DNA of 64,000 nt from Acidobacteriota bacterium (GTDB taxonomy: Bacteria > Acidobacteriota > Thermoanaerobaculia > Multivoradales > UBA5704): contig JBDTZG010000011.1 in NCBI GenBank assembly GCA_040005235.1, positions 32,001-96,000 of the forward strand. Reading direction: 5' to 3'. Position numbers and translations under genes: made by a program. Positions 7,744 through 48,500 of the stretch are shown in pieces (positions within the stretch are counted from its first letter, which is position 1; the number at the start of each line of letters is the position of its first letter). Under the pieces are notes generated by a model. The model was not told the origin of the DNA and ran no database searches. It worked only from the letters and a program-made list of their open reading frames with translations.

Positions 7744-10700
7744 TTACTGCCAATCCCCGTAAACCTGAAACGCCGCCCAGTAGTAGGGAGCGGAGGCGTC
7801 GAAGGGGTGCTTCTCGCCCTTCTCGTCCACGATCTCGATAGGGGCTTCGATCAACTCGCGCTGGGCCGCGCGCAGAGCTTCGTCCTTGGTCTTGCCCGCC
7901 CTCAAGTGGCGGTAGAAGCGGATCATCAGCTCGGCCGTAGCCTGGTCGTTGACGTTCCACAGGCTCGCCATCACGCTCCGCGCCCCAGCGTACTGGAAAG
8001 CTCGGGTAAGGCCGATCAGCCCCTCACCGCCGAGTTCCTTGCCCAGGCCGCTCTCGCAGGCGGAAAGCACCACAAGGTCGGCATCGATCCGCACCCGCTC
8101 GACGATCTCCCAGACCTGGAGGAGGCCGTTGTCGTGTGTGGGCTGGCTTTCGACTTCTGGAGTTTCCGCGGGCACGGTCAAGGCGATGAAAGAGCCGGAG
8201 GGCAGGTGCTCATCAATGCCTGCATGCGCCGCGAAGTGGAGGATGCGCGTCTTCGGGTCGAGGGTCTTCACCCGGTCCTCCAGAGCTTCGGCGCCAAGGA
8301 AGGTGCGGGTCGTCCCGGCAGGGAAAAGGCTCGCGATGCCTTCCACCTCGCGGCGGGTGTAGGGCAGGGGCTGGAAATCGAAGAGACCCCGCTCGGCGGC
8401 ACCACGGACGGTGGGATCGATCCGATCACTCTGAGGAGCTGCTGCCGCGAGGACGGTTTCCACGGGGACATCTTTGAGGGCTGCGAGGTGCTGGGGATAG
8501 ACGGGATCACCGAAGGCCGCCAGGAGAGGCGGTGCCTCTGCACCTACCCCGGAATCCGGTGGCCCTCGGCGTCGGTTCTTCAGTTCGGCGAACACGGTGG
8601 CCGAGAGGGCCACATGCAGGGGCTTCCAGGCGGCGAAGAATTGATCCTGCTCGCCTTCGGCAGAGGTAGCACGGTGAATGAGGGCACCGAAGGGCAAGGC
8701 ATGCAGCGGACCATCGGGGAGGATAAGCAGACGTTCGCTCGCGGCGATGCGCTCTGCGGCCGGCGCAAGCAGGAGGTCGAAAAGCTCGCGGCTCGCTGCC
8801 GTCAGCTGGTTCCTCCGCAGGGCCGCGACCGCTGAGTCTCCCCGTGCCTCGGGCAGGATAGTGAGGAGGTGTTGCACCTTGGCGCGAAGAGCCTCTTCGC
8901 CGAGCGGGATGTTGTATACCTCGAGGGCAGCGTCGTGACCGAGGGTGAAGAGAGCGGACTTGTCTTTGCCTACACTCCAGGAGAGAAGCAATGTGCCTGG
9001 GTCGAGGGCCAGGCGGGCGCGCTCGGCGTCGAGCGGCTCGGGGTAGCGCAAGGCAGCAAGACGGGGGGAGGCTTTGCGGATCTCAACCTCAATATCTCCG
9101 GCCTCGTCGTCGAGGCGGCGTAGTTCGATACGGGCCTCCTTGACCTCCTTCTCATGATCGCGGAGGTTGAGGCCGGCGAGCTTTCTTAGTGTGCGGTCGT
9201 AGAGCACCCCCACCCGACGCCGTTCTCGATCGAGTTCTTCCGGGATATCGCCTGAGAAAGCAATGTCTCGCTCGGAGAGCATTCCAAGGAAGGTTTGGGC
9301 TCGATAGCGTTCGAGGGTCTGGAAGGCTTCGACCTTTTGGTTCTGTGTGAGAAGGAGATCAAGGAAGTCGAAGTAGTAGGAACGGTGTTGGCTCTGGAAG
9401 CCCGCCTCGACGCTGTAGGAACCACCGAGACGGGTGAGTTGGTGGTCAAGGGCTTCGAGGGCACGGAGGAAGTATGAGCGGGCGAGTTCGACCCTGCCTT
9501 GAGCTCGCGTTACAACGGCCAGGTTCCTCAAGGTCGGGGCAGTGAGAAGGCTTCTCGGAGCCTCACGTTCCTGGATCTGTAAAGCACGTAAGTAGAGCGC
9601 CTCCGCCCGACTGAGGTTCCCTTGAGCGCTTTCAACCAACCCAAGGTTGAACAGGCTAGGAGCCACATCAAGACTGGAAGGAGCAAGTCGCTCTCTTAGT
9701 TGGAGCGCGCGCTCGTGGAAATCAGCAGCTGTTCGCCACTCCCCGAGCCTCTGCGCGATAATTCCTAAGCTGTCCAGGCATGTGGCTATCTCAAGGCTTT
9801 CCGTAGAGAGATCCTCGAGTCGCAATGCCTGGGCGTAGTAGGCACGTGCGGTAGCCAGGTCGTCCTGAGACAGTGCAATTGAGCCAAGGTTACTAAGGCT
9901 GACAGCGGAGTTTGTACCTTTAGGAGAGATCAGCTCTTCGAGGCGGAGTGCACTCAGAAGATAATCTTGGGCACGGGAAAAGTCCCCACGTTTCCGAGAT
10001 ACAACACCCAGGTTGTTCAAGGTAGTAGCCATCTCGCGGCCCTGGGGAGACAGATCCTGTTCGACCCTTAACGCCTCGCTGTGATAGCGGTGAGCTTGGT
10101 CGAGTTCGCCAAGATCGGACGCCGCAGTTCCTAAGTTATTGAGGAGCCCTGCCAATTGGAGGCTTCTGGGGGCCAACGCGCTTATGATCTCTAGAGCACT
10201 TGCGTAGTAATCTCGGGCCAATGGCAGCTCTCCTCGCGCCCAAGAGATTGCACCTAACCCGATAAAGTTATTGGCGACGCTGAGACTCTTTGGTGCGCGC
10301 TGCTGCTTGATCTCTAGAGAGCGAAGGTAGTAGTTACGCGCACGCTCAAGGTCGCCTTGACTCTGAGACAGAACAGCCAGATTGCCAAGGCTCCCAGCCA
10401 ACTCTAGGCTCCGAGGTGCCAGCTGTTCCTGTATCCGAAGAGCCTCCAGGAAGTAGTATTTGGCGCGATCAAACCTCCCGGTCGCCCACGCCACCACAGC
10501 AAGATTATTCAGGCTATTAGCCACACCTAGGCTACCGCCGGTGACCTCCTGTTGGGTCCTAAGTGCAAAGGAGTAAGCCGCTCGGGCCGCTTCATATTCA
10601 CTCAGCTGTTCCGAAGCTTCGCCTCGAGCCCCCCACCCAACCAACCTCGCTGTCACACTCTCCGCCCGCTCCACCCCCTCCTGCGCCAATTGTGCCGCCT

Positions 10701-11301
10701 TCCCCCACTCCCCCCTCACACCCCAAACCTCCCCGATTCGCAACAGCATCCATGTTTTCAAGTCCCGCGCATCGCTCTCCGGAACGGCATCGACCAGGGA
10801 ACGCCAGGTGGCCGCCGCCGCTTCCAGATCACCACCGTCCAGCTGCGCTTTGCCCCGCTCGTAGATCTCCTCCAACTCTGGCGCCAACACAGGACGCACC
10901 TTGGCCTCCCAGAGCCCCGGCTCGACGGTGAACTCCTTCGCCTCCTCGCCACGTCGTCCGGTGAGCACTACCGTGCCCCGCGGCGCCTGCTCGATCAGTA
11001 GCTCTTCCCAATCGAAGTAGCCCGCAAGAACGCCCTCCGCCGGCTCCGGGTTCGCAGGTGGGGCGGGAAGGCGCTTCCAGGAGAGGAGCACATCTCCGGC
11101 CTGCACACCCGCCTTCTCGAGCGTCCACCCACCCAACGACTCCACAACTACACCGGTGAGTTCCTCCGCCGTCGGGCTAGGTGATGCTTCGGGCGCCGCC
11201 AGTTCCTTCTGAACCGGTTGCGGGCTAGGGAACAGGAGGCAGGGGAAGAGCAGGGATGCAGCCAGGGCACGAGGAGACGAACCGCGGATCAACATGGGCA
11301 T
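7744..11301 (-). CDS. Signal-peptide PDZ-like/TPR/CHAT (caspase-like) protease
   Basis: CHAT motifs LLILPDGPLHALPF, ILHFAAH (His), VVLSACES (Cys), GLTRAFQYAGARSVMASLWNV.D, PYYWAAF; many TPRs. Start re-set to ATG 11301 with AGGAGG RBS, followed by a hydrophobic signal-like segment. Confidence 0.93.
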   Translation of the reverse strand: MPMLIRGSSPRALAASLLFPCLLFPSPQPVQKELAAPEASPSPTAEELTGVVVESLGGWTLEKAGVQAGDVLLSWKRLPAPPANPEPAEGVLAGYFDWEELLIEQAPRGTVVLTGRRGEEAKEFTVEPGLWEAKVRPVLAPELEEIYERGKAQLDGGDLEAAAATWRSLVDAVPESDARDLKTWMLLRIGEVWGVRGEWGKAAQLAQEGVERAESVTARLVGWGARGEASEQLSEYEAARAAYSFALRTQQEVTGGSLGVANSLNNLAVVAWATGRFDRAKYYFLEALRIQEQLAPRSLELAGSLGNLAVLSQSQGDLERARNYYLRSLEIKQQRAPKSLSVANNFIGLGAISWARGELPLARDYYASALEIISALAPRSLQLAGLLNNLGTAASDLGELDQAHRYHSEALRVEQDLSPQGREMATTLNNLGVVSRKRGDFSRAQDYLLSALRLEELISPKGTNSAVSLSNLGSIALSQDDLATARAYYAQALRLEDLSTESLEIATCLDSLGIIAQRLGEWRTAADFHERALQLRERLAPSSLDVAPSLFNLGLVESAQGNLSRAEALYLRALQIQEREAPRSLLTAPTLRNLAVVTRAQGRVELARSYFLRALEALDHQLTRLGGSYSVEAGFQSQHRSYYFDFLDLLLTQNQKVEAFQTLERYRAQTFLGMLSERDIAFSGDIPEELDRERRRVGVLYDRTLRKLAGLNLRDHEKEVKEARIELRRLDDEAGDIEVEIRKASPRLAALRYPEPLDAERARLALDPGTLLLSWSVGKDKSALFTLGHDAALEVYNIPLGEEALRAKVQHLLTILPEARGDSAVAALRRNQLTAASRELFDLLLAPAAERIAASERLLILPDGPLHALPFGALIHRATSAEGEQDQFFAAWKPLHVALSATVFAELKNRRRGPPDSGVGAEAPPLLAAFGDPVYPQHLAALKDVPVETVLAAAAPQSDRIDPTVRGAAERGLFDFQPLPYTRREVEGIASLFPAGTTRTFLGAEALEDRVKTLDPKTRILHFAAHAGIDEHLPSGSFIALTVPAETPEVESQPTHDNGLLQVWEIVERVRIDADLVVLSACESGLGKELGGEGLIGLTRAFQYAGARSVMASLWNVNDQATAELMIRFYRHLRAGKTKDEALRAAQRELIEAPIEIVDEKGEKHPFDASAPYYWAAFQVYGDWQ

Positions 11302-38788: not shown

Positions 38789-39880
38789 TCAGACGGCCTT
38801 CGCCTTGCGATCAGCGCTGAGTGTTGCAAGCCAACGTTCCAGGCTGATCAGGCGACCTCTGTCGATGTGTTCGATCACCTTGCGCATTGACTCCTCCCCG
38901 GCCGGACCGTACGTTGCACTGAGCGCATCGGTGTTGATGTGTACGACATAAGTGAACATAGGTGCGTTGCCGGCCAGCTTTTCACATGCACGCATCAGCC
39001 GTGCGGGATCAAACTCGTTGGTCACGAACACATATTCGAAGGGTTTCCCGTCTGACTCTGCGTTTAAATAGTCACCGAAGTCTGCCGCAAACTGCTTCTC
39101 TCGGTCAGCGCGAACGCTCCACTTGGCGGTTACGAGGGTCCGCATCTGAGGCCGAATCACCGCCACGTCGACCTTGTTCGCCTTTTCACCTCTCTTGGGG
39201 CGGTTGAAGCCAGGAAGTTCGTGCAGGAGGCGCCGTGTGTGGACCTCAAGCGAGGATGCCTGACAGCTAAGGCGAATGACGTGCGCCAGGACGTCTTCGA
39301 AGCCTTCTCCTACCAGGTTCTTCCGCTTGTTCTCAAGAGCAAGGTACTGACGGATACGCTGGACGAGTTGCTGCCACGCCTCAGCGGATGGTTCTTGTTT
39401 CAAGTGCCCGCCCAAGACTTCCTTCACGATCGAAACCAGTTCGGGGTCTTCGCCAGGCTTTGGAAAGCCCTTCTCCTCGTACGGCTGTCGCTGTTTCGAA
39501 GCCGAGGCAGCTATCCTGGAGGCATTCCGCATAACCTCTGTGGCTAGGTCGGCTGTGGCCTTCCGAAATAACCAGTCGATCTCTTCGGCGACCTTGGTTG
39601 GTGCAACATCTAGCGATGTGGAAACCCAATCATGAAATGCCAGGGACCTTGAGTACCAGTTTTTTCCGGGCTGGGCCTTATCGCTTTCGTAGCAGTGTGC
39701 GAGACCCGTGGTTTGGTCTGCCCAAAGAAGCAGTCTGTAGACGTGCGACCACGCTAGCGGCGCAGTGACGCCAGATTCAACTTGCATGGAGAAATAGGCG
39801 TCAATGAGGCGGCTGCGGTTCTTTGCTCCGAATGCCGCCTTAACGAACGCGCCCTCTGAGCTGCCCTGATGAGACGTCAT
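38789..39880 (-). CDS. Putative restriction endonuclease (PD-(D/E)XK-like)
   Basis: Immediately downstream of the C5 methyltransferase; GEGFE...KVDVAV...VTAKWSVRADREKQ resembles REase catalytic cores; GC visibly lower than the flanks. Confidence 0.55.
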   Translation of the reverse strand: MTSHQGSSEGAFVKAAFGAKNRSRLIDAYFSMQVESGVTAPLAWSHVYRLLLWADQTTGLAHCYESDKAQPGKNWYSRSLAFHDWVSTSLDVAPTKVAEEIDWLFRKATADLATEVMRNASRIAASASKQRQPYEEKGFPKPGEDPELVSIVKEVLGGHLKQEPSAEAWQQLVQRIRQYLALENKRKNLVGEGFEDVLAHVIRLSCQASSLEVHTRRLLHELPGFNRPKRGEKANKVDVAVIRPQMRTLVTAKWSVRADREKQFAADFGDYLNAESDGKPFEYVFVTNEFDPARLMRACEKLAGNAPMFTYVVHINTDALSATYGPAGEESMRKVIEHIDRGRLISLERWLATLSADRKAKAV

Positions 39881-39893
39881 ATCGACTCCGCGG

Positions 39894-41288
39894 TCAACCG
39901 GTCCGAGTGCGAAGGGCCTCTCGCTGCCGGGAAGACCGCAGCTCTGCCAGCAAGCTCTGTGCTACAGCTCGTGCGAGGAGGGGGGGCACTGCATTCCCAG
40001 CCTGGCGGTAACGAGAATGAGCGGGTCCCCCGTCATGCCGTCCTGGGATTGGCCCCCGTCTTGGGTCCGTTGTAAAAGTGAATCGATCGGGAAAAGACTG
40101 AAGGCGGGCAAACTCGCGCACCGAAAGGGCTCGCGCTTGTTCGTAGTGGTAGACCGAGTCGGCCTTGGTGTTCAGAGTCCAAGCCCAAATCCCAGGATGA
40201 AGGCGACGGTAAGCGTAAAAGTGTCGCCTTGAGAGCCGCCCGGTTCCGTTGTCCTGCCCCCACCGCTGGCCCGTGATGTACCGGTCGAGAAGGTCTTCGG
40301 CTAGATCTCGGTGGTTGCCACCTTGGGGTATTCCACCAAGCCGTAGTTCGGTGTCGAGAATGATCCGAGGAACTTGGACGTTTGTAAGGAGTTCGCCGGC
40401 ACCAGAACGCATTAGCCGTTGATATTCGCTCCTCGGGCCGGGTAGCTCCGTATATGGGAGCGCATCGTTGCGGTTTCCAACGGAGAGACCGACGAGGTCT
40501 GAAATCGCATCGGCCGCACTGACAACCGAAGAATTCTCTGGATCAGAGAGAGCTTCGCCGATGCGCAGGCTGAACAGGCGTTCTTGAACTACGACCTGAT
40601 ACCGTGATCGACGACTGCCATTGTAACGCACTAACTCCAATGATTCCGTCGCTCCGGTCCCGCTCAGCTTTGGCGGGACCATTCCTAGCGAACTGCGAAC
40701 GCCTATGAAGAGAATGCGTTTCCGTGTTTGAGGAACACCAAAATCCGCCGCATCCACTACTTGAGGTAGCACAGCGTACTCGCCCTCCAGCTCGAGGTCG
40801 GCGAGTATCTGTTCGCGCACGCCCATCTGGTCCATTCCCGTGACGTTTTCGACCACAAATGCCATTGGCAGCGATTGCCGAAGGACACCGACGAATTCCC
40901 GATAAAGGGTGTTGCGCGGGTCTTCGATCAGCCGCGCGTGGTTACGGACCTGAGAGAATGCCTGGCATGGCGGCCCCCCGATGAGCACGCTGGCCGAACG
41001 AGCTGCGTCAAGAATCTGCTCCTTGATCGCGTCGTTTCGGATGTCGCCCGTGATGACTCTCGACTCCGGGAAGTTGAGCCCGTAGGTTGCGGAAGCATCG
41101 GGATCGTTGTCGGACCCGGCGATGATCGAGAAGCCGGCCTGTCGGAAACCCTCCGATAGTCCACCCGCACCTGCAAACAAGTCCACTACGGAAAACGCCG
41201 CTCCGCCTTCGGAGGACCCCACCCCTCGACGGCGCAAGCTCCCTGAGGTGGGTTCGGCGGCTCGCCAATTCGCTCTGTTGATCATCAC
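39894..41288 (-). CDS. DNA (cytosine-5)-methyltransferase
   Basis: DLFAGAGG, GGPPCQ, ENV, FGVPQTRKR, SVREFARLQSFP, GNAVP. Confidence 0.95.
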   Translation of the reverse strand: MMINRANWRAAEPTSGSLRRRGVGSSEGGAAFSVVDLFAGAGGLSEGFRQAGFSIIAGSDNDPDASATYGLNFPESRVITGDIRNDAIKEQILDAARSASVLIGGPPCQAFSQVRNHARLIEDPRNTLYREFVGVLRQSLPMAFVVENVTGMDQMGVREQILADLELEGEYAVLPQVVDAADFGVPQTRKRILFIGVRSSLGMVPPKLSGTGATESLELVRYNGSRRSRYQVVVQERLFSLRIGEALSDPENSSVVSAADAISDLVGLSVGNRNDALPYTELPGPRSEYQRLMRSGAGELLTNVQVPRIILDTELRLGGIPQGGNHRDLAEDLLDRYITGQRWGQDNGTGRLSRRHFYAYRRLHPGIWAWTLNTKADSVYHYEQARALSVREFARLQSFPDRFTFTTDPRRGPIPGRHDGGPAHSRYRQAGNAVPPLLARAVAQSLLAELRSSRQREALRTRTG

Positions 41289-41387
41289 CGTCAGGGAGTA
41301 TCTCAGAATCTCCGCGCGATTGTGCCCAATCTGCGGTCCGAAGCAGCCCCGCCTGTCGCTCCAGGCTCGAACGCTCCGGCGGAGAAG

Positions 41388-41609
41388 CTACCCGATGATC
41401 TCGGACATGCACTTTGATGGCTGGCGTCCCGCTTGGCGTCGGCGCTGGAATTCGCGACGCGCCGTCTCGCGATCAACTCCGTTCGCCTGGGCATAAACCT
41501 CCAAGCCGCGCTCCCCGAGCCGGAGAATCAGCTCAAAGCGCTCCTGGAGCGGAAGATTCTCCATCTCGTCGCGAAGCTCGTCTCTCAAATCGTCGGCTAC
41601 GGACCGCAT
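41388..41609 (-). CDS. Small helical hypothetical protein (73 aa), antitoxin-like
   Basis: MRSVADDLRDE...ERFELILRLGERGLEVYAQANGVDRETARR; coherent small ORF; function is inferred only. Confidence 0.55.
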   Translation of the reverse strand: MRSVADDLRDELRDEMENLPLQERFELILRLGERGLEVYAQANGVDRETARREFQRRRQAGRQPSKCMSEIIG

Positions 41610-41681
41610 AGCGGAAGTATAGCCCTGGCTCGATGGGACTCAGGGCCTCGTCAACGTCGGTGTTCCTGTTGTCACTCGGTT

Positions 41682-42106
41682 GTTGCGATCCAGATCTGGA
41701 AGGTTCGGACCAAGCTCTAGGTCGTCTCGATCCAGGTCCGGACGACTCGGATCCAGGTCTGAACGGTCGGGACCGAGGTCTGAGCCGTGAAATCCAGGTC
41801 CGGGCGACTCAGGACTGGATCCGGACCGTTGCGATCCAGGTCCGAATGGCTCAGACCTAGGTCTGGTGTATCGCGATCCAGGTCTGGACGACTCAGACCA
41901 AAGTCTCGTGTGCCGCGATCCAGGCCGGACGACTCGGTCCCAGGTCTGAACGATCGGGACAGAGGTCTGGACCGTCGCGATCCAGGTCCGGGAGACTCAG
42001 AACTAGATCTCGTGTGTCGCGATCCAGGTCTGGACGACTCAGACCACGTTCTCGTGTGTCGCGATCAGGGTCCGGTCGGCTCGGACCTGGGTCCCGACCG
42101 TTGCGA
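41682..42106. repeat. About 20 degenerate 21-bp tandem units with palindromic GAYCNNGRTC core and a 42-bp higher-order alternation
   Basis: Unit starts at 41687, 41708, 41729, 41750, 41771, 41791, 41812, 41833, 41854, 41875, 41896, 41917, 41937, 41958, 41979, 42000, 42021, 42042, 42063 and 42084; two 1-bp slips. Confidence 0.9.
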
Positions 42107-42151
42107 CGGACTATCAGTATGTTGCAAGGTCCAGACGAGGACGGGATGTAC

Positions 42152-42869
42152 GTCGCAATCCCACCTGACAGATCAGGGACATTCGGACATGATAGTGCGC
42201 CTCCTTGAGCACGGGGGTTAAGCGAGTGTCGCAATCCCACCTGACAGATCAGGGACATTCGGACGTTTTTCGCCGGCCTGGCGGCGTGGGCTGTAATGGT
42301 CTACGTCGCAATCCCACCTGGCAGATCAGGGACATTCGGACCACGGTGGTTTTGACAGCTTCGCCCCACTACACCGAGCGTCGCAATCCCACCTGACAGA
42401 TCAGGGACGTTCGGACACAAAGATGGCTGCGAGCATCGCGGCATAGGCAAGGTGAAGTCGCAATCCCACCTGACAGATCAGGGACGTTCGGACGGAGAGC
42501 TGAAGAAACTCCTCTGTCGCAAGTAGGAAAGATGTCGCAATCCCACCTGACAGATCAGGGACATTCGGACGGCCGGAAGCTGCCTGCGCGCCGAAGGTTA
42601 CGCACCCGTCGCAATCCCACCTGACAGATCAGGGACATTCGGACTACGCGACGACTACGCCGCCTCCCTCGTGTTCCGTACCGTCGCAATCCCACCTGAC
42701 AGATCAGGGACATTCGGACCTGAATGAAGCCCGGGAGACTAGTTCGTTCGCTCCTGTAGTCGCAATCCCACCTGACAGATCAGGGACATTCGGACGGCCA
42801 TGCGATCGAAGTTCCTCTTGATCCTTCTTTCTGTCGCAATCCCACCTGACAGATCAGGGACATTCGGAC
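42152..42869 (-). CRISPR. CRISPR array: 10 x 37-bp repeats, 9 spacers of 37-40 bp (probable 10th spacer at 42112-42151); type III-like repeat; no cas genes in the window
   Basis: Plus-strand repeat GTCGCAATCCCACCTGACAGATCAGGGACATTCGGAC at 42152, 42228, 42305, 42380, 42457, 42534, 42608, 42683, 42759 and 42833; single-base variants in the 42305, 42380 and 42457 copies. The minus-strand repeat ends GGGATTGCGAC, as in Thermus type III repeats. Confidence 0.97.
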
Positions 42870-43035
42870 CCCTGCCTCCGCAACCTCTTCTGAATCAGTG
42901 GGTTGCAAGGGCGATTTCCGGAACCTCGCGACATACGCTTGCCTTACGCTGGTCGATGCTTCGTTTTTACCCGCCGAGGCGGCTCGCAAAGCTTTGATTG
43001 TCAAGGAGCTTACGGCTGTTTCCGGAACCTGGGTG
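42870..43035 (-). promoter_or_regulatory. Probable CRISPR leader
   Basis: Non-coding and less GC-rich; direct repeat TTTCCGGAACCT at 42915-42926 and 43019-43030; the five repeats nearest this side are all consensus. Confidence 0.6.
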
Positions 43036-43159
43036 CCAAATTGGCGAAGAGGTCTCGAAAACTGGTATGACTTTTGCCTGGCTCCGACGATATACACCTT
43101 CGGGTCCTCTGTCCATCCGCTCGCAGATTGGGCGTTTGCGGGGCTTCGGTGGGCGCGGG

Positions 43160-45538
43160 TCAACCGCAGGCGACCCGCACGCGGAGGATTTGCCCCGCCT
43201 CCACCTCTTGTAGCAGCTCTCCTTGCAATCGACGTCCATCGACCTCCACAATCACCTCACCCGCCCGCAGCCCCGTCTGCCGCTCGATTTCGATCTCCAA
43301 CATCGCGCCCCGGTAGGGCCGGCGCATCTTCGCTCGCGGCCAGGTTGGGGGAAGGCAGGGATCGAAGAGGAGGCCGTCCCACGTCGGCCGGACGCCGAGG
43401 ACGTTTTCGGCGAGGATGCGCGGCAGCCAGGCGGCGGAGCCGGTGTACCAGGTCCAGCCGGCTCTTCCGCGGTAGGGGGATTCGGGGCCGTCGACGTTGC
43501 CGGGGAGCACGTACGGCTCGGCCCAGTAGGTGTCGGGATCGTGGAGCGAGGGGTTGATCCAGGTGAGCAGCCGCCCGACCGTTTCGCCGTCGTTCATCGC
43601 CGCCGCGGCCGAGATTGCCCAGGTTGCGGCGTGGGTGTAGACCCCGCCGTTTTCGCGCAGGCCCGGGGCGTAGCGGGTGATGTAGCCGACCGTCTCGTCC
43701 GGCTCGCTCCAGGCGGGCGCGAGCAGCAGGGCGCCCACCCCTTCGCACAGCAGGTGTTCGCGCACGGCGGCCCAGGCTGCCGTGGCGCGCTCGGGGCGGG
43801 CGGCGCCAGAGAGGATCGCCCAGGTTTGGGCGTTGAGAAAGATCCTTCCGAAGCGGTTCTCCTTGGCTCCTATCCAGGTGCCGTCATCGCGCGTCGCGCG
43901 GCGGTACCAGGCGCCGTCCCAGGCGTGCTCTTCAATCGCCGCGAGGTAACCGGCGCGGCGAGCAAGGAGATCGGCCGCTTTCTCCGGCGCGCCGCGTCGG
44001 CGGGCGATCTCGGCCCAGTCTTCTAGCAGGCCGATCAGGAACCAGCCGAGCCAGACCGACTCGCCGCGCTCTTCAAGCCCCACCGCAGACAGGCCGTCGT
44101 TCCAATCGCCCTCGCCGATCAGCGGCAGGCCGCGTGGGCTGGTGCGCGAAAAGACCCGGGCGAACGCTCGCTCGACGTGATCGGAGAGCGGGCTGGGCTG
44201 CGCCTCGTCGAGGAAAGACGATTCGTCGTCGAGCAGCGAGAGGTCGCCGGTCTCTTTCGCATAATTGGCGGTCACGAACCCCAGCCAGAGCAGATCGTCG
44301 GTCATCTTCGTGACGTGTCCCTGCTCGGTGAGCGGATGCCACCAGTGGACGACCGAGCCGTCTTTGAACTGGTGCCCGGCGTGCAGCGCGATCTGCGCGC
44401 GGCAACGCGGCGGATCGATCGTCAGCCAGACTTGCGAATCCTGGAGCTGATCGCGAAAACCGTACGCGCCGCTCTGTTGGTAATAACCGGCCCGGCCCCA
44501 GAGCCGCGCCGAAATCGCCTGATAGCGCAGCCAATCGTTGGCGAGTAGGTTGAGCGACGGCTCGGGCGTTTCGATCCGCTGCGCGGCCAGGAGATCGCGC
44601 CAACCCGCCACCGCGCGGGCGAACGAAGCGGCCATCGCGGAAGGCTGAGCGAAGCGGGTGGCGAGCGCCGTCGCCGATTCCGGATCGGCCGTGGTCGCCA
44701 GCACGAAGCCCCCTTCGAAAACTCCATGCGGGGCGAGGTCGATCTCCGCGCGCAGCGCGGCGACCGGATCGTAATGCCGGCCGAACAGCCCCGCCCAAGG
44801 AGCGTCCGAATCGAGCGCCGCGGGGCGCTTCCAATCGCCGCCGGCCCCTAAGAACGCCGCCTTGTCCCCCTCCGCCCCGGCGAGCGGTTGGGCGGAGGCG
44901 AACGCGCTCCAGAACGGAAACGGCGTGTTCCAATGGCCCCAGCGGGGATTTCCGACGTCCCACATGTGGCTGCCGGCGACGATCCCGGGAAGGTCGGGAA
45001 GCCAGCGCGTTTCCATGAACAACTTTTGGAACTCGCGCCGCGGCGCGGGCGAGGTGCCGCAGTTCCATTCGAGGAACGGCACGAGCACGAGCCTGCGCGC
45101 CCGGCCCTCCTTCTCGGTCAGCGAGACGCGCCAGATCTCGACCGTCTCGTCCGGGTCGACGAATAGCGTCCAGCTCGCCGAAACGCCGTCGTGCTCGGAC
45201 TCGAACGTCGTGTAGCCGAGGCCATGGCGGCAGACGTGGTGCGCTTCGCTTAAACCGCAAGGAGCCGGAGCGAGCGAGGAGACCCGGCCGGCGTCGCGAT
45301 CGCGCAGGTAAAGAAAGCGCCCGGACCGGTCGTCGGCCAGATCCTGCTGCCAGCGCACGATCGCCGCGAGCTGCGAGTTGTCGATCCAAGAAAAACCGCT
45401 GCCGGTCTGCGATACCGCAAGGCCGATCCGCGGATTGGTGATCACGTTCGCCCAAGGACGCGGCGTGTTGGGATCGGTGATCACGTATTCAGAGCCATCG
45501 GCGGAGAAATGGCCGTAGCGATTTTGCCCTGCGCTCAT
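43160..45538 (-). CDS. GH94 glycoside phosphorylase
   Basis: EYVI..PNTPRPWANVI, YQQSGAYGFRDQLQD, HWWHP, GDWNDGL, RENGGVYTHAA, WYTGSAAW; ATG 45538 overlaps the upstream stop. Confidence 0.93.
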   Translation of the reverse strand: MSAGQNRYGHFSADGSEYVITDPNTPRPWANVITNPRIGLAVSQTGSGFSWIDNSQLAAIVRWQQDLADDRSGRFLYLRDRDAGRVSSLAPAPCGLSEAHHVCRHGLGYTTFESEHDGVSASWTLFVDPDETVEIWRVSLTEKEGRARRLVLVPFLEWNCGTSPAPRREFQKLFMETRWLPDLPGIVAGSHMWDVGNPRWGHWNTPFPFWSAFASAQPLAGAEGDKAAFLGAGGDWKRPAALDSDAPWAGLFGRHYDPVAALRAEIDLAPHGVFEGGFVLATTADPESATALATRFAQPSAMAASFARAVAGWRDLLAAQRIETPEPSLNLLANDWLRYQAISARLWGRAGYYQQSGAYGFRDQLQDSQVWLTIDPPRCRAQIALHAGHQFKDGSVVHWWHPLTEQGHVTKMTDDLLWLGFVTANYAKETGDLSLLDDESSFLDEAQPSPLSDHVERAFARVFSRTSPRGLPLIGEGDWNDGLSAVGLEERGESVWLGWFLIGLLEDWAEIARRRGAPEKAADLLARRAGYLAAIEEHAWDGAWYRRATRDDGTWIGAKENRFGRIFLNAQTWAILSGAARPERATAAWAAVREHLLCEGVGALLLAPAWSEPDETVGYITRYAPGLRENGGVYTHAATWAISAAAAMNDGETVGRLLTWINPSLHDPDTYWAEPYVLPGNVDGPESPYRGRAGWTWYTGSAAWLPRILAENVLGVRPTWDGLLFDPCLPPTWPRAKMRRPYRGAMLEIEIERQTGLRAGEVIVEVDGRRLQGELLQEVEAGQILRVRVACG

Positions 45539-48500
45539 CTGTACAACCCCTTCCCTTCCAGCTGTAGATCGACCATCGCGGGCAGCTGTCGTAACGTGAA
45601 CGTTCCGTCCGGTCCGATCGCCGCCGGCTTGCCATCCACCCACACTCCACCCGCCCGCCCTTCGAGCGGCCACGAGAGCACGAGCCCGCCGGGCGGCAGC
45701 TCCAGCCCCTTCTCCGCGATCTCGTAATGGACCCCCGTGCCGCGCCGAGCGAGGCGGTAGGTGAGCGTTCCCCACGGGGTCCGCAGGTCGCGCACCGCGA
45801 TCCCTTCCGGGCGATCGAGCCATGCCGCGGAAACGCCCGCCGCGAGCACCAGCGAGTGATCCCCGCGCCGCTCATAGGCGAACAGGTCGAGCGCGGAGCG
45901 GACGAAGTCCGTCGCCACCCAGCCGTGCGGCAGATCGCCGATGAAATGCGCCTGGCGCGGGTCGCGGCTCACCACCTCCGGCCATTGGTTCCAAGGAACT
46001 GGACGCCGGTCGGCGAGGTAGAAATCGAGCGCGGAGAGCGCCCGCTCCTTCCAACCGAGCCGGAGGAACGCGCCGATGTGGCGAATCTCATAGGGGGTGT
46101 AGATCTCCCACTCTTTGGCGCCCGAACGGCGGGCGGACAGCTCGGCGTAAAACCTTTCGAACGTGGCGTCGAGCGCGGCCTTCGGCAGGTACCCTTCGAG
46201 CCCCGCGGGATCGAGCGCGATCGTAGTTGCGGTCGAATCGAAATCGGCGAGATCTTCCGAGCCGGGGATGTAGGCGATCTTCGCCCGCTCTCGCGTGTGC
46301 TCGATCGAGGCGAGCAGGTCGGCGCGGAACTCGTCGCGGCGCGCGCCCCACTTCGCCGCGAAGTCCTCGTGCCCCAGCGCGTGTGCCAGATCGACCGCGT
46401 CTTCCAAGCCGCGATAGGCGAAGAAATCGTCCCAATAGGAATGAACCGCTTTGGCCGAATACCCCTCGTGGCTGATCGATTCCGGCAGCAGACCGAAGGC
46501 GTCTTTGCCTTTCCAGTCTTCCGTGCGCCGCGACTGGCGGAGCGCTTCGAGGTGATCGACCGCGCGCGCCACGACCGGCAGCATCTTCTCCGCCCACGCG
46601 CGGTCTTTGCCGTAGCGATAGACCTCGGTGATCAAATGGATCAGCTCGCCGTGGCTGTCGTGCTCGGGGACCGAATCGGCGCCCCGCTTGTCGACGCAGC
46701 AAGGCACCGTTCCGTCGGCCGACTGAAAGCCTGAAAACCACTCGACGAACTCGCGCGCCGTATCGACCTCGCCGAGGCGCAGCAGTGCCACCCCGGTCAA
46801 GGCCCCGTCGCGAATCCACGATCTGGCATAGGCGCGTGAACCGGGCTGAAGCGCCGGGCCGTCGCGATGGATCAACACCCAGGCGAGGCTCGATCGGATC
46901 GCCCGGGCGATGGGCGCGGCCGCTGGCGGCAGGTCGAGGCCGACTCGCGACAGCCGCTGCCGCCAGTTGGCGGAAACCTCTCGTTCGAGCGCGGCGAAAC
47001 GTTCTCCTCCACCCGCCGCGATCTTCGCCGCTGCGCCGCGCGCTTCCGGATTCGAGCCGCCCGCCGCGATGACTTCGAGCGAGGCGCCCGGCGCGAGGTC
47101 GAAAGGCCAGGCGAGAATCCCGGTCGCTTGGGCCTCAGGGTCGTTCACTTCGGTGCGGCGGGGGAGCGTGCCGGCGGCGAGACGCTCGAAGGGGCTCCCT
47201 TCGTCGAAAGTCATCGCGCCGAATTTCGCCGCAGGAGAAACGAAGAGGGAGGGCTCCCCTTCGATCGCGAGGCCGTGCTCGTCTCCCGCGAGGTGCGAAA
47301 GGCGCGAGACGCCGCCCGGATCGTTCAGAAACTGCTGGGGCGGGTTGACTTGGAACGGCCGGGCCGCCAGTTGGAGCGTGCCGGTTCGGCGCGTCGTGGA
47401 AAGGTTTGCCAGATGGTAGCGGGCGAGCAGCGCACTTCCACCGGGGACCGGCGTCGCGAGCGCGGTGATCGAGAGACGTAGGGCGGGGTGGTCGGCGGGA
47501 AACTCCCAGGTGACGGTGGGGATCGGAAGGTCGCCTTCCGCGAGCGATTGGGTGATGCTCGAATTCGCCCAGGTGATCAGCCGCCCGTTCGGTTCATTCA
47601 GCCGCACGAACGGTTCGAGCGAATAGCGCTCGGCCAGCTCGGTCAGTTCAATCGTGCCGTCTTCGGAGACGAGCATCTCGACGGGATCTTTGTCGACGCC
47701 GACCACCGTCCAGTAACTCTGCTCGTTGAGGAAGGCGCGTGGATAGGCGCCGCGTGGCACTTCCGAGGCGAGCATCGAGACGAAAGCGTTGCGCGAGGCT
47801 CCGACCGAGAGGGGCCGGATTTCCGCCCCGGCAATGCCGAATCCCTTCGGCCCGGGCTCGCGAAGGTGGAGGCGAAGCGCCCGGGCTTCGGATTCGGGGA
47901 GGTAGAAATCGGTTCGCGCGGCGCCTCGCGGCTCGGCTTCGCGCACAGGGCGGAACGTCGAGCCGTCCTCCGAGATTTCGAGCGCCACCCGTCCCGGCGC
48001 ACGCCCGGGCTCCCAACGAAGGGTCAAACCGCCCAGCTCGGTGAGCCCGCCGAGGTCGATCGCGATCTCCTGCTCGCCCTTTTCATTCGGTGAACTTTTC
48101 GTGAGGTCGAGCGCCTTGGGGCTCGCGCTCGGCTCTTGGCGGGGGACGACTTCGAGGTTGGAAATCCAGACCGTGCCGTGCCCGCCGGTGGCCGCGGTGA
48201 CGGTGAGCTCCAATTCGGCGATCCGCCGCAGGGGAGGCGGCGCGCCGGAGTCCGGCCCCCAGGCGAACGCAACCTGCCGCTCCTTGACCCTCACGGTCTC
48301 GGCCGCTTTGGGCCAGGCGACGTTCCGCAGCACGTGCCAGTAGACGTTCTCGTGGGCATCCAGCAGCTTCACTTCCAGATGGTTCGGCGGCCCTTCGCCG
48401 CGGAGATCGAAGCGCAACTCCCAGGTGGCGGGCAGCTCGATGTCTAAAGATCGCCGCGCCGCCGCCCAGCCCGCCTTGCCGTGAAAGTCGTAATCGAGCC

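What the first reader, a model, noticed from the sequence alone, without database searches (positions are those of the whole stretch)
41682..42188. A 21-bp tandem array replaces the terminal CRISPR repeat and resembles it
Seen: 40 bp (one spacer length) left of the last full repeat lies CGGAC (42107-42111), the last five bases of the plus-strand repeat. The rest of that repeat is missing and the 21-bp array occupies its place. The far end of the array, GTTGCGATCCAGATCTGGAAGGTTCGGAC (41682-41710), matches the CRISPR repeat with 8 nt removed (GTCGCAATC-CAGATCAGGGACATTCGGAC) at 23/29 positions by manual count, and several units contain GTCGCGATCC versus the repeat's GTCGCAATCC. Inference: the tandem array arose by amplification of a collapsed CRISPR repeat, or the CRISPR array recombined or was seeded at a look-alike sequence. 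Either way a minus-strand pre-crRNA would read into about 20 small palindromes.
Basis: partly seen in the sequence, partly recalled or inferred. Interest (0 to 1): 0.72.

Follow-up and report, generated by a model that had tools for sequence, protein, structure and literature searches.

The report
Dispersed repeat array beside orphan CRISPR
The 21/42-bp repeat block next to this CRISPR array is one copy of a non-coding repeat family scattered through the genomes of this soil bacterial genus, so it was not made from the CRISPR repeat and only loosely resembles it.

Summary
The interpretation mostly fails. The 430-bp array (41682-42111) belongs to a 42-bp (2x21) tandem family. That family also occurs at 7 other loci of this genome, none with a CRISPR, and in 5 of 7 other genomes of the genus. 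The CRISPR repeat family is far wider: 19 of 201 genomes of the order. The CRISPR array ends in a complete repeat. The slot where a further repeat would lie matches 12/37, and 86 of 394 offsets do as well. CGGAC at a spacer distance has about 5.5% chance. Likeness of the repeat to the adjacent array is nominally p 0.002-0.04, but the best unit is inverted and lies about 270 bp from the nearest CRISPR repeat. Against the family consensus p is 0.10-0.17. Two things remain of interest. In this genome 59 of 69 long tandem arrays have a period of 20-22 or 40-42 bp. Such arrays also recur at the edges of CRISPR modules. This scan had already noted arrays of this kind on other Thermoanaerobaculia DNA.

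The parts
41682..42111 (.). Tandem array of about 10 units of 42 bp (20 half-units of about 21 bp). It is one copy of a dispersed, genus-restricted, non-coding repeat family.
   Evidence: TRF and register print. Homologous arrays at 7 other loci. Stops in all six frames. No Pfam match for the three overlapping ORFs that were scanned. No Rfam match.
41840..41878 (+). The unit most like the CRISPR repeat: 29 of 37 repeat bases matched over 40 columns, starting with GTCCGAATG. It is in inverted orientation relative to the CRISPR array.
   Evidence: Semi-global alignment score 15, reached by 2 of 1000 random 37-mers. This 9-mer occurs in 1 of the 11 family arrays examined.
41682..41710 (+).
   Evidence: Recount. 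It scores 12.25 under the long-gap scheme, where shuffled repeats average 6.86 (sd 1.84).
42112..42151 (-). 40-nt segment between the array and the last CRISPR repeat. It is either trailer DNA or a relic spacer. It holds a 17-mer 88% like one in the leader (42113-42129 against 42894-42910).
   Evidence: (family D4).
42152..42869 (-). Orphan CRISPR array: 10 repeats of 37 nt and 9 spacers of 37-40 nt. The repeat belongs to a family found next to type III (RAMP) genes on another contig.
   Evidence: Related repeat and RAMP genes on contig C18. No cas domain among the nine flanking ORFs scanned; three of them had no Pfam match.
42870..43115 (-). CRISPR leader, which fixes the direction of transcription (right to left in window coordinates).
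   Evidence: Alignment with the leaders of G002:C3 and of both C18 arrays, mean column identity 73%.
41388..41609 (-). 73-aa gene whose start lies 72 nt left of the array. It is conserved next to the GH94 gene in congeners that lack both the array and the CRISPR.
   Evidence: ORF list, no Pfam match, synteny in G002, G003 and G007.
39894..41288 (-). C-5 cytosine DNA methylase (context). Together with the 363-aa ORF at 38789-39880 it is absent from the syntenic stretch of G003.
   Evidence: Pfam PF00145, E 1.1e-56. Synteny.
43160..45823 (-). GH94 glycoside phosphorylase-like gene (context). Its stop lies about 45 nt from the end of the leader.
   Evidence: Pfam PF17167 and PF06165. Orthologues in 7 of 7 congeners.

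Best explanation
The array is one copy of a non-coding, genus-restricted tandem-repeat family with a 42-bp unit made of two 21-bp half-units. In the consensus each half-unit starts with the 8-bp perfect palindrome GTCCGGAC. The family is spread over at least eight intergenic loci of this Thermoanaerobaculia genome. At this locus it lies at the left edge of a variable insertion hot spot between a GH94 gene and a 73-aa gene. An orphan type III-style CRISPR array with its own leader fills the rest of the insert. The two are neighbours in plastic DNA: the CRISPR array ends with a complete repeat and nothing has been replaced. Shown: family membership, non-coding nature, orientation, and the insertion hot spot. 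Inferred: the family spreads by recombination or by travelling with accessory cassettes, and grows or shrinks by slippage or unequal exchange. For function I commit to the following, at about 40%. The palindromes sit every two turns of the DNA helix, which makes the array a phased docking platform for a dimeric DNA-binding protein. This fits the fact that nearly all long tandem arrays of this genome share the 20-22 or 40-42 bp period but not the sequence. A by-product would be that read-through pre-crRNA meets a run of G+C-rich hairpins before the 73-aa gene.
For: Family: BLAST of the array against its own genome finds arrays at C99, C126, C33, C131, the end of C111, C32 and C7. The genome search gives 13 matches in G000 at 66-88% identity, and matches in 5 of 7 other genomes of the genus, 1 of 17 genomes of other genera of the family (weak, E 4.4e-4) and 0 of 16 genomes of other families. 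No CRISPR there: the window's repeat, with up to 7 mismatches, occurs only at this locus. A k-mer CRISPR finder reports true arrays only on C18 (two), C45, C68 and C111. Non-coding: stops in all six frames, no Pfam, no Rfam. Hot spot: the spacer between the 73-aa gene and GH94 is about 30 nt in G007. In G002 it is 1.6 kb of visibly A+T-richer DNA, and in G003 it is 3.3 kb of other genes, and neither insert has a CRISPR or this repeat. In G000 it is 1.5 kb. Complete last repeat and ordinary slot. Orientation. Phasing: consensus and core spacings. GTCCGGAC occurs 12 times in 2365 nt of family arrays against 165 in the whole 6.2-Mb genome. Of 69 long tandem arrays in the genome, 59 have a period of 20-22 or 40-42 bp. 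By crude gene of 122 such arrays are intergenic. Folding z-scores are -6.0 and -5.0.
Against: The repeat resembles this copy of the array more than random 37-mers do: 2 to 39 of 1000 score as high, depending on the statistic. One unit carries the repeat's first nine bases exactly, which none of the 10 other family arrays examined does. In G002 all three CRISPR loci of this repeat family have the same tandem family 0.4-1.7 kb away. So the neighbourhood is not purely accidental, although two of those three loci are paralogous modules. No binding protein is identified: neighbours differ between loci, and the 73-aa gene's orthologues lack the array. No bias in the orientation of flanking genes was seen, which fits neither a promoter nor a terminator role. 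There are no expression data.
Confidence: 0.7

Rival explanations
1. The whole tandem family descends from a CRISPR repeat of this type. A spacerless, collapsed repeat was amplified once in an ancestor of the genus and then spread to other loci.
For: The 42-bp consensus unit is collinear with the 37-nt repeat from its GTCC start to its GCGAC end, with 26-28 matches. The repeat variant of G002:C3 starts with GTCCGGACG, the commonest start of family units. The family lies near CRISPR modules in G002 (3 of 3 loci) and here. The repeat family is older and wider (19 of 201 genomes, 8 of 70 genera) than the tandem family, so the direction is possible.
Against: Consensus against repeat scores 8. That score is reached by 506 of 3000 random genomic 37-mers and 291 of 3000 shuffles. 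The related C18 repeat scores 5, reached by more than half. Against the 7 non-adjacent loci the window's repeat is unremarkable (200-551 of 1000). The alignment needs 4 gaps.
Confidence: 0.1
2. Local recombination or gene conversion between the trailer-end CRISPR repeats and a look-alike array removed or overwrote one or more terminal repeat-spacer units. This left CGGAC and a relic spacer, and copied repeat-like patches into the array.
For: CGGAC lies exactly one spacer length from the last repeat. The adjacent copy is more repeat-like than the seven others. The GTCCGAATG unit occurs only in this copy. On contig C18 the last repeat of another array is cut 2 nt short and runs straight into a different 41-bp tandem family.
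Against: The CGGAC coincidence has a probability of about 0.055, and the rest of the slot is at background (12/37; 86 of 394 offsets as good). The repeat-like units are far from the junction, and the best one is inverted. The last repeat is an intact consensus copy.
Confidence: 0.12
3. The array acts at the RNA level. It would be a hairpin-rich terminator, insulator or 3'-end stabiliser (REP/BIME-like) that stops pre-crRNA read-through into the co-directional 73-aa gene.
For: It lies between the CRISPR trailer and a gene on the same strand. Both strands fold far better than shuffles. Arrays of about 20-21 nt from other families follow the trailers of related arrays within 0 to about 180 nt in G000:C18, G121, G095 and G002:C44. 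With this locus that makes 5 of about 24 trailer ends inspected.
Against: Genome-wide the arrays show no preference for convergent or tandem gene pairs: 31% convergent, 50% tandem and 19% divergent, against 27/53/20% for gaps of like size. In G002 the same family lies upstream of leaders, not downstream of trailers. No T-run terminators were noted. With so many arrays in intergenic DNA, 5 of 24 is only about 2 to 5 times my rough background estimate.
Confidence: 0.12

Closest known systems
REP / BIME clusters of Enterobacteria and Pseudomonas (repetitive extragenic palindromes in mosaic arrays)
   Same: Short G+C-rich palindrome-bearing units. Extragenic. Several dispersed loci per genome. Clustered head to tail. 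Strong single-strand folding. Lineage-specific sequence.
   Different: Here the units abut in long strict tandem arrays with a two-turn (21-bp) period. Copy number is low (8 loci). Alternating orientation is not evident. None of the 11 Y1-transposase matches lies at a family locus. The definition of REP/BIME is taken from the abstract of PMC2817692 as listed. I did not read the paper.
Degenerate terminal repeat of CRISPR arrays
   Same: Position at the trailer end, one spacer length beyond the last good repeat. The last five bases are shared.
   Different: Terminal repeats decay by point changes but stay recognisable. The terminal repeat of G002:C3 differs from its neighbours by about five changes as I read, and those on C18 and G006 end in GCGAG. 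Here the slot has 12/37 identity, which is background.
Phased binding-site arrays such as plasmid iterons or the F-plasmid sopC centromere (recalled from own knowledge; also named in earlier scan note e1-1260292)
   Same: Tandem units carrying a palindromic core, repeated in phase with the DNA helix.
   Different: No cognate binding-protein gene is conserved next to the arrays. The loci are chromosomal and dispersed. Binding is untested.
Bacterial minisatellites (for example mycobacterial MIRU/VNTR loci; recalled from own knowledge)
   Same: Intergenic tandem repeats of tens of bp, present at several loci, and presumably variable in copy number.
   Different: A strict 20-22 or 40-42 bp period is shared by many unrelated sequence families in one genome, and the units have palindromic cores.

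Membership tests
CRISPR array (is the 21/42-bp block itself a CRISPR remnant?) | Direct repeats separated by unique spacers of similar length | tested here: not met
   Units abut head to tail with periods of 21 and 42 and no unique spacers.
CRISPR array (is the 21/42-bp block itself a CRISPR remnant?) | A recognisable, if degenerate, terminal repeat at one spacer distance | tested here: not met
   Slot 42075-42111 has 12/37 identity, and 86 of 394 other offsets in the array do as well or better.
CRISPR array (is the 21/42-bp block itself a CRISPR remnant?) | Units significantly similar to the neighbouring repeat | tested here: inconclusive
   Adjacent copy: 2-39 of 1000 random 37-mers score as high. 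Other seven loci: 200-551 of 1000. Family consensus: 506 of 3000 random 37-mers and 291 of 3000 shuffles.
REP / BIME | Short imperfect palindromes in extragenic DNA | tested here: met
   The 8-bp palindrome GTCCGGAC starts each half-unit of the consensus. There are stops in all six frames. By crude gene of 122 arrays of this period class are intergenic.
REP / BIME | High copy number (more than 100 per genome, per the abstract of PMC2817692 listed) | tested here: inconclusive
   There are 8 loci in G000. 93 units could be cut from 11 arrays of G000 and G002 together.
REP / BIME | REPs in alternating orientation within clusters | tested here: inconclusive
   Adjacent half-units are about as alike directly (7-14 of 21) as inverted (6-13 of 21).
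REP / BIME | Association with a REP-associated Y1 (RAYT) transposase gene | tested here: not met
   There are 11 Y1_Tnp matches in the genome and none is at the eight family loci. One weak match lies near arrays of another family on C35.
Phased protein-binding array (iteron or centromere-like) | Palindromic cores repeated in helical phase | tested here: met
   Core spacings of 21, 41 and 42 bp are the commonest in the window array (9 of 17 intervals), alongside shorter and 32-33 bp intervals. 59 of 69 long arrays in the genome have a period of 20-22 or 40-42 bp.
Phased protein-binding array (iteron or centromere-like) | Cognate DNA-binding protein encoded beside the array | tested here: not met
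   Neighbours differ between loci: PhdYeFM, Unstab_antitox, a weak ParD/Omega-repressor-like hit beside a PIN gene, a BrnA-like hit below the Pfam cut-off, and SocA/Panacea. Orthologues of the 73-aa gene in G002, G003 and G007 have no array.
Phased protein-binding array (iteron or centromere-like) | Demonstrated binding | not testable with these tools
   Needs EMSA, DAP-seq or pull-down.
Protein-coding heptad repeat (21 nt = 7 codons) | One open frame through the array with unit lengths that keep the frame | tested here: not met
   Stops: 3, 3 and 1 in the plus frames and 4, 3 and 2 in the minus frames. Unit lengths vary (periods 41, 42 and 104). No Pfam match for the ORFs scanned.

The most novel reading that the evidence does not exclude
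In this Thermoanaerobaculia lineage, tandem arrays of palindromes with a period of two helical turns act as boundary or docking elements of mobile defence cassettes (CRISPR-leader-cas1/cas2 modules and toxin-antitoxin pairs). They would provide the homology or protein platform by which such cassettes are copied between loci. On this reading the block beside this CRISPR is the edge of the inserted module. Its partial likeness to the repeat would reflect sequence exchange with, or descent from, CRISPR repeats.
Probability: 0.12. Interest if true: 0.7.

Novelty: new member of a known kind. Interest (0 to 1): 0.3.

Why it matters
For the finding as written, it matters little. It removes an attractive but unsupported story of a CRISPR repeat turning into a satellite. 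It also shows that CRISPR finders and readers should expect unrelated tandem arrays at array ends in these genomes. The wider pattern is worth a dedicated study. One genome holds about 120 intergenic arrays from many sequence families that nearly all keep a 20-22 or 40-42 bp period. Several of them sit at the edges of CRISPR modules and toxin-antitoxin genes. A shared period without a shared sequence points to a structural or protein-imposed rule. Four literature searches returned no description of it.

Tried and rejected
- RNA evidence: no RNA holder was listed for the stretch, so expression and read-through remain untested.
- Rfam: no match at E up to 1 in 41000-43400.
- RAYT link: looked for and not found.
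- Toxin-antitoxin neighbourhood, genome-wide. 13 of 122 arrays lie within 1 kb of a PIN, ParE, Phd or Unstab_antitox match. Random genome positions give 3.9 and random crude-intergenic positions give 8.1 (maximum 16), so there is no clear enrichment. The crude-intergenic null is itself biased towards uncalled small genes.
- Orientation of flanking genes: no bias. The gene calls were a rough GC3 heuristic covering 74% of the genome.
- Cas6: no PF01881 match in the genome. Other Cas6 families were not searched.
- A-unit/B-unit alternating inversion: considered from eye alignment, not borne out.
- Coding reading: rejected.
- The 17-mer shared by the 40-nt segment and the leader (family D4): by my rough estimate about 0.4-1 such pair is expected by chance in 1.5 kb, so I left it as a note.
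- Earlier scan notes by sequence and by place gave nothing.
- Literature: four full-text searches listed no paper describing such arrays in Acidobacteriota or tandem arrays at CRISPR trailers. I saw only listings and the starts of abstracts. Supplements were not consulted.
- The script stopped with an indexing slip after printing its statistics. The alignment was redone.

Full report
**What is there.** The window is part of contig C111 of a 6.2-Mb, 66% G+C genome. The closest relatives of its GH94 gene are Thermoanaerobaculia (Acidobacteriota) MAGs.

Positions 42152-42869 hold a CRISPR array of ten 37-nt repeats and nine spacers of 37-40 nt. To its left, after 40 nt, lies a 430-bp tandem array (41682-42111). 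TRF reports it with periods of 42 and 104, and it prints cleanly in a 21-nt register.

- CGGAC lies at 42107-42111, 40 nt from the last repeat.
- 41682-41710 matches the repeat with 8 nt removed at 23/29.
- GTCGCGATCC occurs in two units and GTTGCGATCC in two more.

In each of two public runs (two samples of one study, possibly the assembly's own source) a single contig covers 41300-42181 without a difference. Short-read data therefore reproduce the junction. Long reads were not available.

**Orientation and nature of the CRISPR array.** The 245 nt right of the array align with the leaders of three other arrays of the same repeat family: one in a congener (G002:C3) and two on contig C18 of this genome. 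Mean column identity is 73%.

None of the nine flanking ORFs scanned has a cas domain. Recognisable neighbours are a C5 methylase, acetate kinase and phosphoketolase on one side and a GH94 gene on the other. Three of the nine ORFs, including the 73-aa ORF next to the array, have no Pfam match. The genome has RAMP (type III) genes next to the related arrays on C18 and a Cas1 next to an unrelated array on C68/C45.

The repeat family is old and widespread: 19 of 201 genomes of the order and 8 of 70 genera.

**The tandem array is a member of a dispersed family.** BLAST of the array against its own genome finds arrays of the same 42-bp unit at seven further loci: C99, C126, C33, C131, the end of C111, C32 and C7. 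The genome search confirms 13 matches in G000. It also finds the family in:
- 5 of 7 other genomes of the genus (24 matches in G002);
- 1 of 17 genomes of other genera of the family, a weak match (E 4.4e-4);
- 0 of 16 genomes of other families.

None of the seven other loci has a CRISPR. The window's repeat, allowing 7 mismatches, occurs only here, and a k-mer CRISPR finder reports true arrays only on C18, C45, C68 and C111.

It rules out an origin by local amplification of this array's terminal repeat.

The block is also non-coding:
- there are stops in all six frames;
- unit lengths vary;
- the three overlapping ORFs scanned have no Pfam match;
- there is no Rfam match.

At four of the other loci the flanking small genes are toxin-antitoxin components:
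- PhdYeFM (above the Pfam cut-off);
- Unstab_antitox, twice (above the cut-off);
- a PIN gene next to a weak ParD/Omega-repressor-like antitoxin hit;
- SocA/Panacea;
- a BrnA-like hit below the cut-off.

**Is a terminal repeat missing?** No evidence says so.
- The array ends in an intact consensus repeat.
- The slot where one more repeat would lie (42075-42111) matches the repeat at 12 of 37 positions. The mean over all offsets in the array is 9.5, and 86 of 394 offsets do as well or better.
- CGGAC occurs six times in the array, so finding one at one of four spacer-length offsets has a probability of about 0.055.

**Does the array resemble the repeat?** Somewhat, and only this copy. I scored the repeat under four statistics against 1000 random genomic 37-mers. 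The statistics were shared 6-mers, ungapped local alignment, and semi-global alignment with a long or a standard gap.

| Target | Random 37-mers scoring as high (of 1000) |
|---|---|
| Adjacent array | 39, 22, 3, 2 |
| Seven other loci | 284, 551, 200, 250 |

Against a consensus unit built from 93 units of 11 arrays, the repeat scores 8. That score is reached by 506 of 3000 random 37-mers and 291 of 3000 shuffles.

The best hit is the unit at 41840-41878: 29 of 37 repeat bases, including the first nine, GTCCGAATG. It lies in inverted orientation, about 270 bp from the nearest CRISPR repeat. That 9-mer is in none of the 10 other family arrays I hold. It is, however, two transitions from common unit variants.

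Local sequence exchange is possible but not shown.

**Context: an insertion hot spot.** The 73-aa gene and the GH94 gene are neighbours in congeners.
- G007: about 30 nt separate them.
- G002: 1.6 kb of visibly A+T-richer DNA (composition not computed).
- G003: 3.3 kb of other genes.

Neither the G002 nor the G003 insert has a CRISPR or this repeat. In this genome the 1.5-kb insert reads, from left to right: 38 nt, tandem array, 40 nt, CRISPR, leader, about 45 nt. The array thus sits at the edge of the inserted block.

**Association with CRISPR modules.** In G002 all three CRISPR loci of this repeat family have the same tandem family 0.4-1.7 kb away. There it lies upstream of the leader or of cas1-cas2, not at the trailer. 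Two of those loci are paralogous, so these are not three independent events.

On C18 of this genome the last repeat of array 1 is cut 2 nt short and runs straight into a different 41-bp tandem family. That family precedes cas2 remnants and the leader of array 2.

Arrays of about 20-21 nt from yet other families follow the trailers of related arrays in G121 (35 nt away), G095 and G002:C44. Together with this locus and C18, that makes 5 of about 24 trailer ends that I inspected by eye. My rough background estimate is 4-9%. The excess is modest, and the count was made after the fact.

**The wider phenomenon.** TRF finds 122 arrays of at least 80 nt with periods near multiples of 21 in this genome, totalling 26 kb. 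By a crude GC3 gene of them are intergenic. Of the 69 tandem arrays with at least 150 nt and 4 copies, 59 have a smallest period of 20-22 or 40-42 bp, although their sequences belong to many unrelated families.

In the present family each half-unit of the consensus begins with the perfect palindrome GTCCGGAC. That 8-mer occurs 12 times in 2365 nt of family arrays and 165 times in the whole genome. Both strands fold far better than shuffles, with z of -6.0 and -5.0.

Three tests for a general role were negative:
- none of the 11 Y1-transposase matches lies at a family locus;
- flanking-gene orientation shows no bias;
- toxin-antitoxin genes show no clear genome-wide enrichment.

A period kept across unrelated sequences argues for a rule tied to the DNA helix. 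I therefore favour, at about 40%, a phased protein-docking array. Neutral or selfish minisatellite behaviour is the fallback. An RNA-level barrier to read-through is a possible by-product at this locus.

**Relation to known things and to this scan.** The closest described kind is the REP/BIME cluster. Palindromes and an extragenic position are met. The transposase link is not met. Copy number and alternating orientation are inconclusive.

The block is not a CRISPR array and not a degenerate terminal repeat.

This scan had already noted arrays of the same plan:
- in this genome (e1-1426719);
- on other Thermoanaerobaculia DNA (e1-1251781, e1-930016);
- one reading of them as a docking platform (e1-1260292).

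I treated these as leads. My genome-wide counts agree with them. Here the small-gene partnership of e1-1260292 does not hold, because orthologues of the 73-aa gene lack the array.

Four literature searches listed no description of such arrays. I saw listings and abstract starts only.

**Verdict.** 'Replaces the terminal repeat' and 'derived from it' are not supported, and the resemblance is weak and copy-specific. The thing itself is a new member of a known kind of bacterial repeat. The period rule and the cassette-edge position are the parts worth following up.

Noticed in passing
G000 contig C18:198500-198870 (locus L059 about 10500-10870): The last repeat of a type III-associated CRISPR array is cut 2 nt short. 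It runs directly into a 41-bp tandem array of a different sequence family, which precedes cas2 remnants and the leader of a second array.
   Followed up: partly
whole genome G000 (TRF census): There are about 122 mostly intergenic tandem arrays from many unrelated sequence families. 59 of the 69 long ones have a period of 20-22 or 40-42 bp. Several contigs begin or end in such arrays (C4, C124, C127, C111).
   Followed up: partly
window 41645-43154 compared with L070, L072, L075: The spacer between the GH94 gene and the 73-aa gene is an insertion hot spot with different cargo in each congener: about 30 nt in G007, 1.6 kb of visibly A+T-richer DNA in G002, 3.3 kb of other genes in G003, and CRISPR plus tandem array here.
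   Followed up: yes
window 38789-41288: A C5 cytosine methylase and a 363-aa ORF with no Pfam match (possibly its restriction partner) lie between the acetate kinase gene and the 73-aa gene. The syntenic stretch of G003 has only 556 nt there. In congeners the 73-aa gene appears to overlap a downstream small gene by ATGA, which seems lost or truncated here. I read this by eye and did not scan it.
   Followed up: no
G000 C99:4566-4965 and C126:89486-89885 (flanks of two family arrays): A shared element of about 270 nt (85% identity) with long terminal inverted repeats, MITE-like, lies directly beside the tandem arrays at both loci.
   Followed up: no
L032 (G121) about 1655-1880 and L028 (G095), reverse strand about 1600-1920: In two genomes of another genus the trailer-end repeat of a related CRISPR array is split by a palindromic MITE-like insert of about 190-300 nt. 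The two halves of the repeat are still recognisable on either side.
   Followed up: no
window 42113-42129 and 42894-42910: A 17-mer in the 40-nt segment left of the array is 88% identical to a 17-mer in the leader (family D4). It may be chance or a trace of leader-derived sequence at the trailer.
   Followed up: partly
window 41682-42111: The array is dense in short palindromes that are typical targets of C5 methylases and restriction enzymes (CCWGG, GGWCC, CCGG, GATC; target assignment recalled from own knowledge). It lies 400 nt from a C5 methylase gene. The other family loci were not checked for methylase genes.
   Followed up: no
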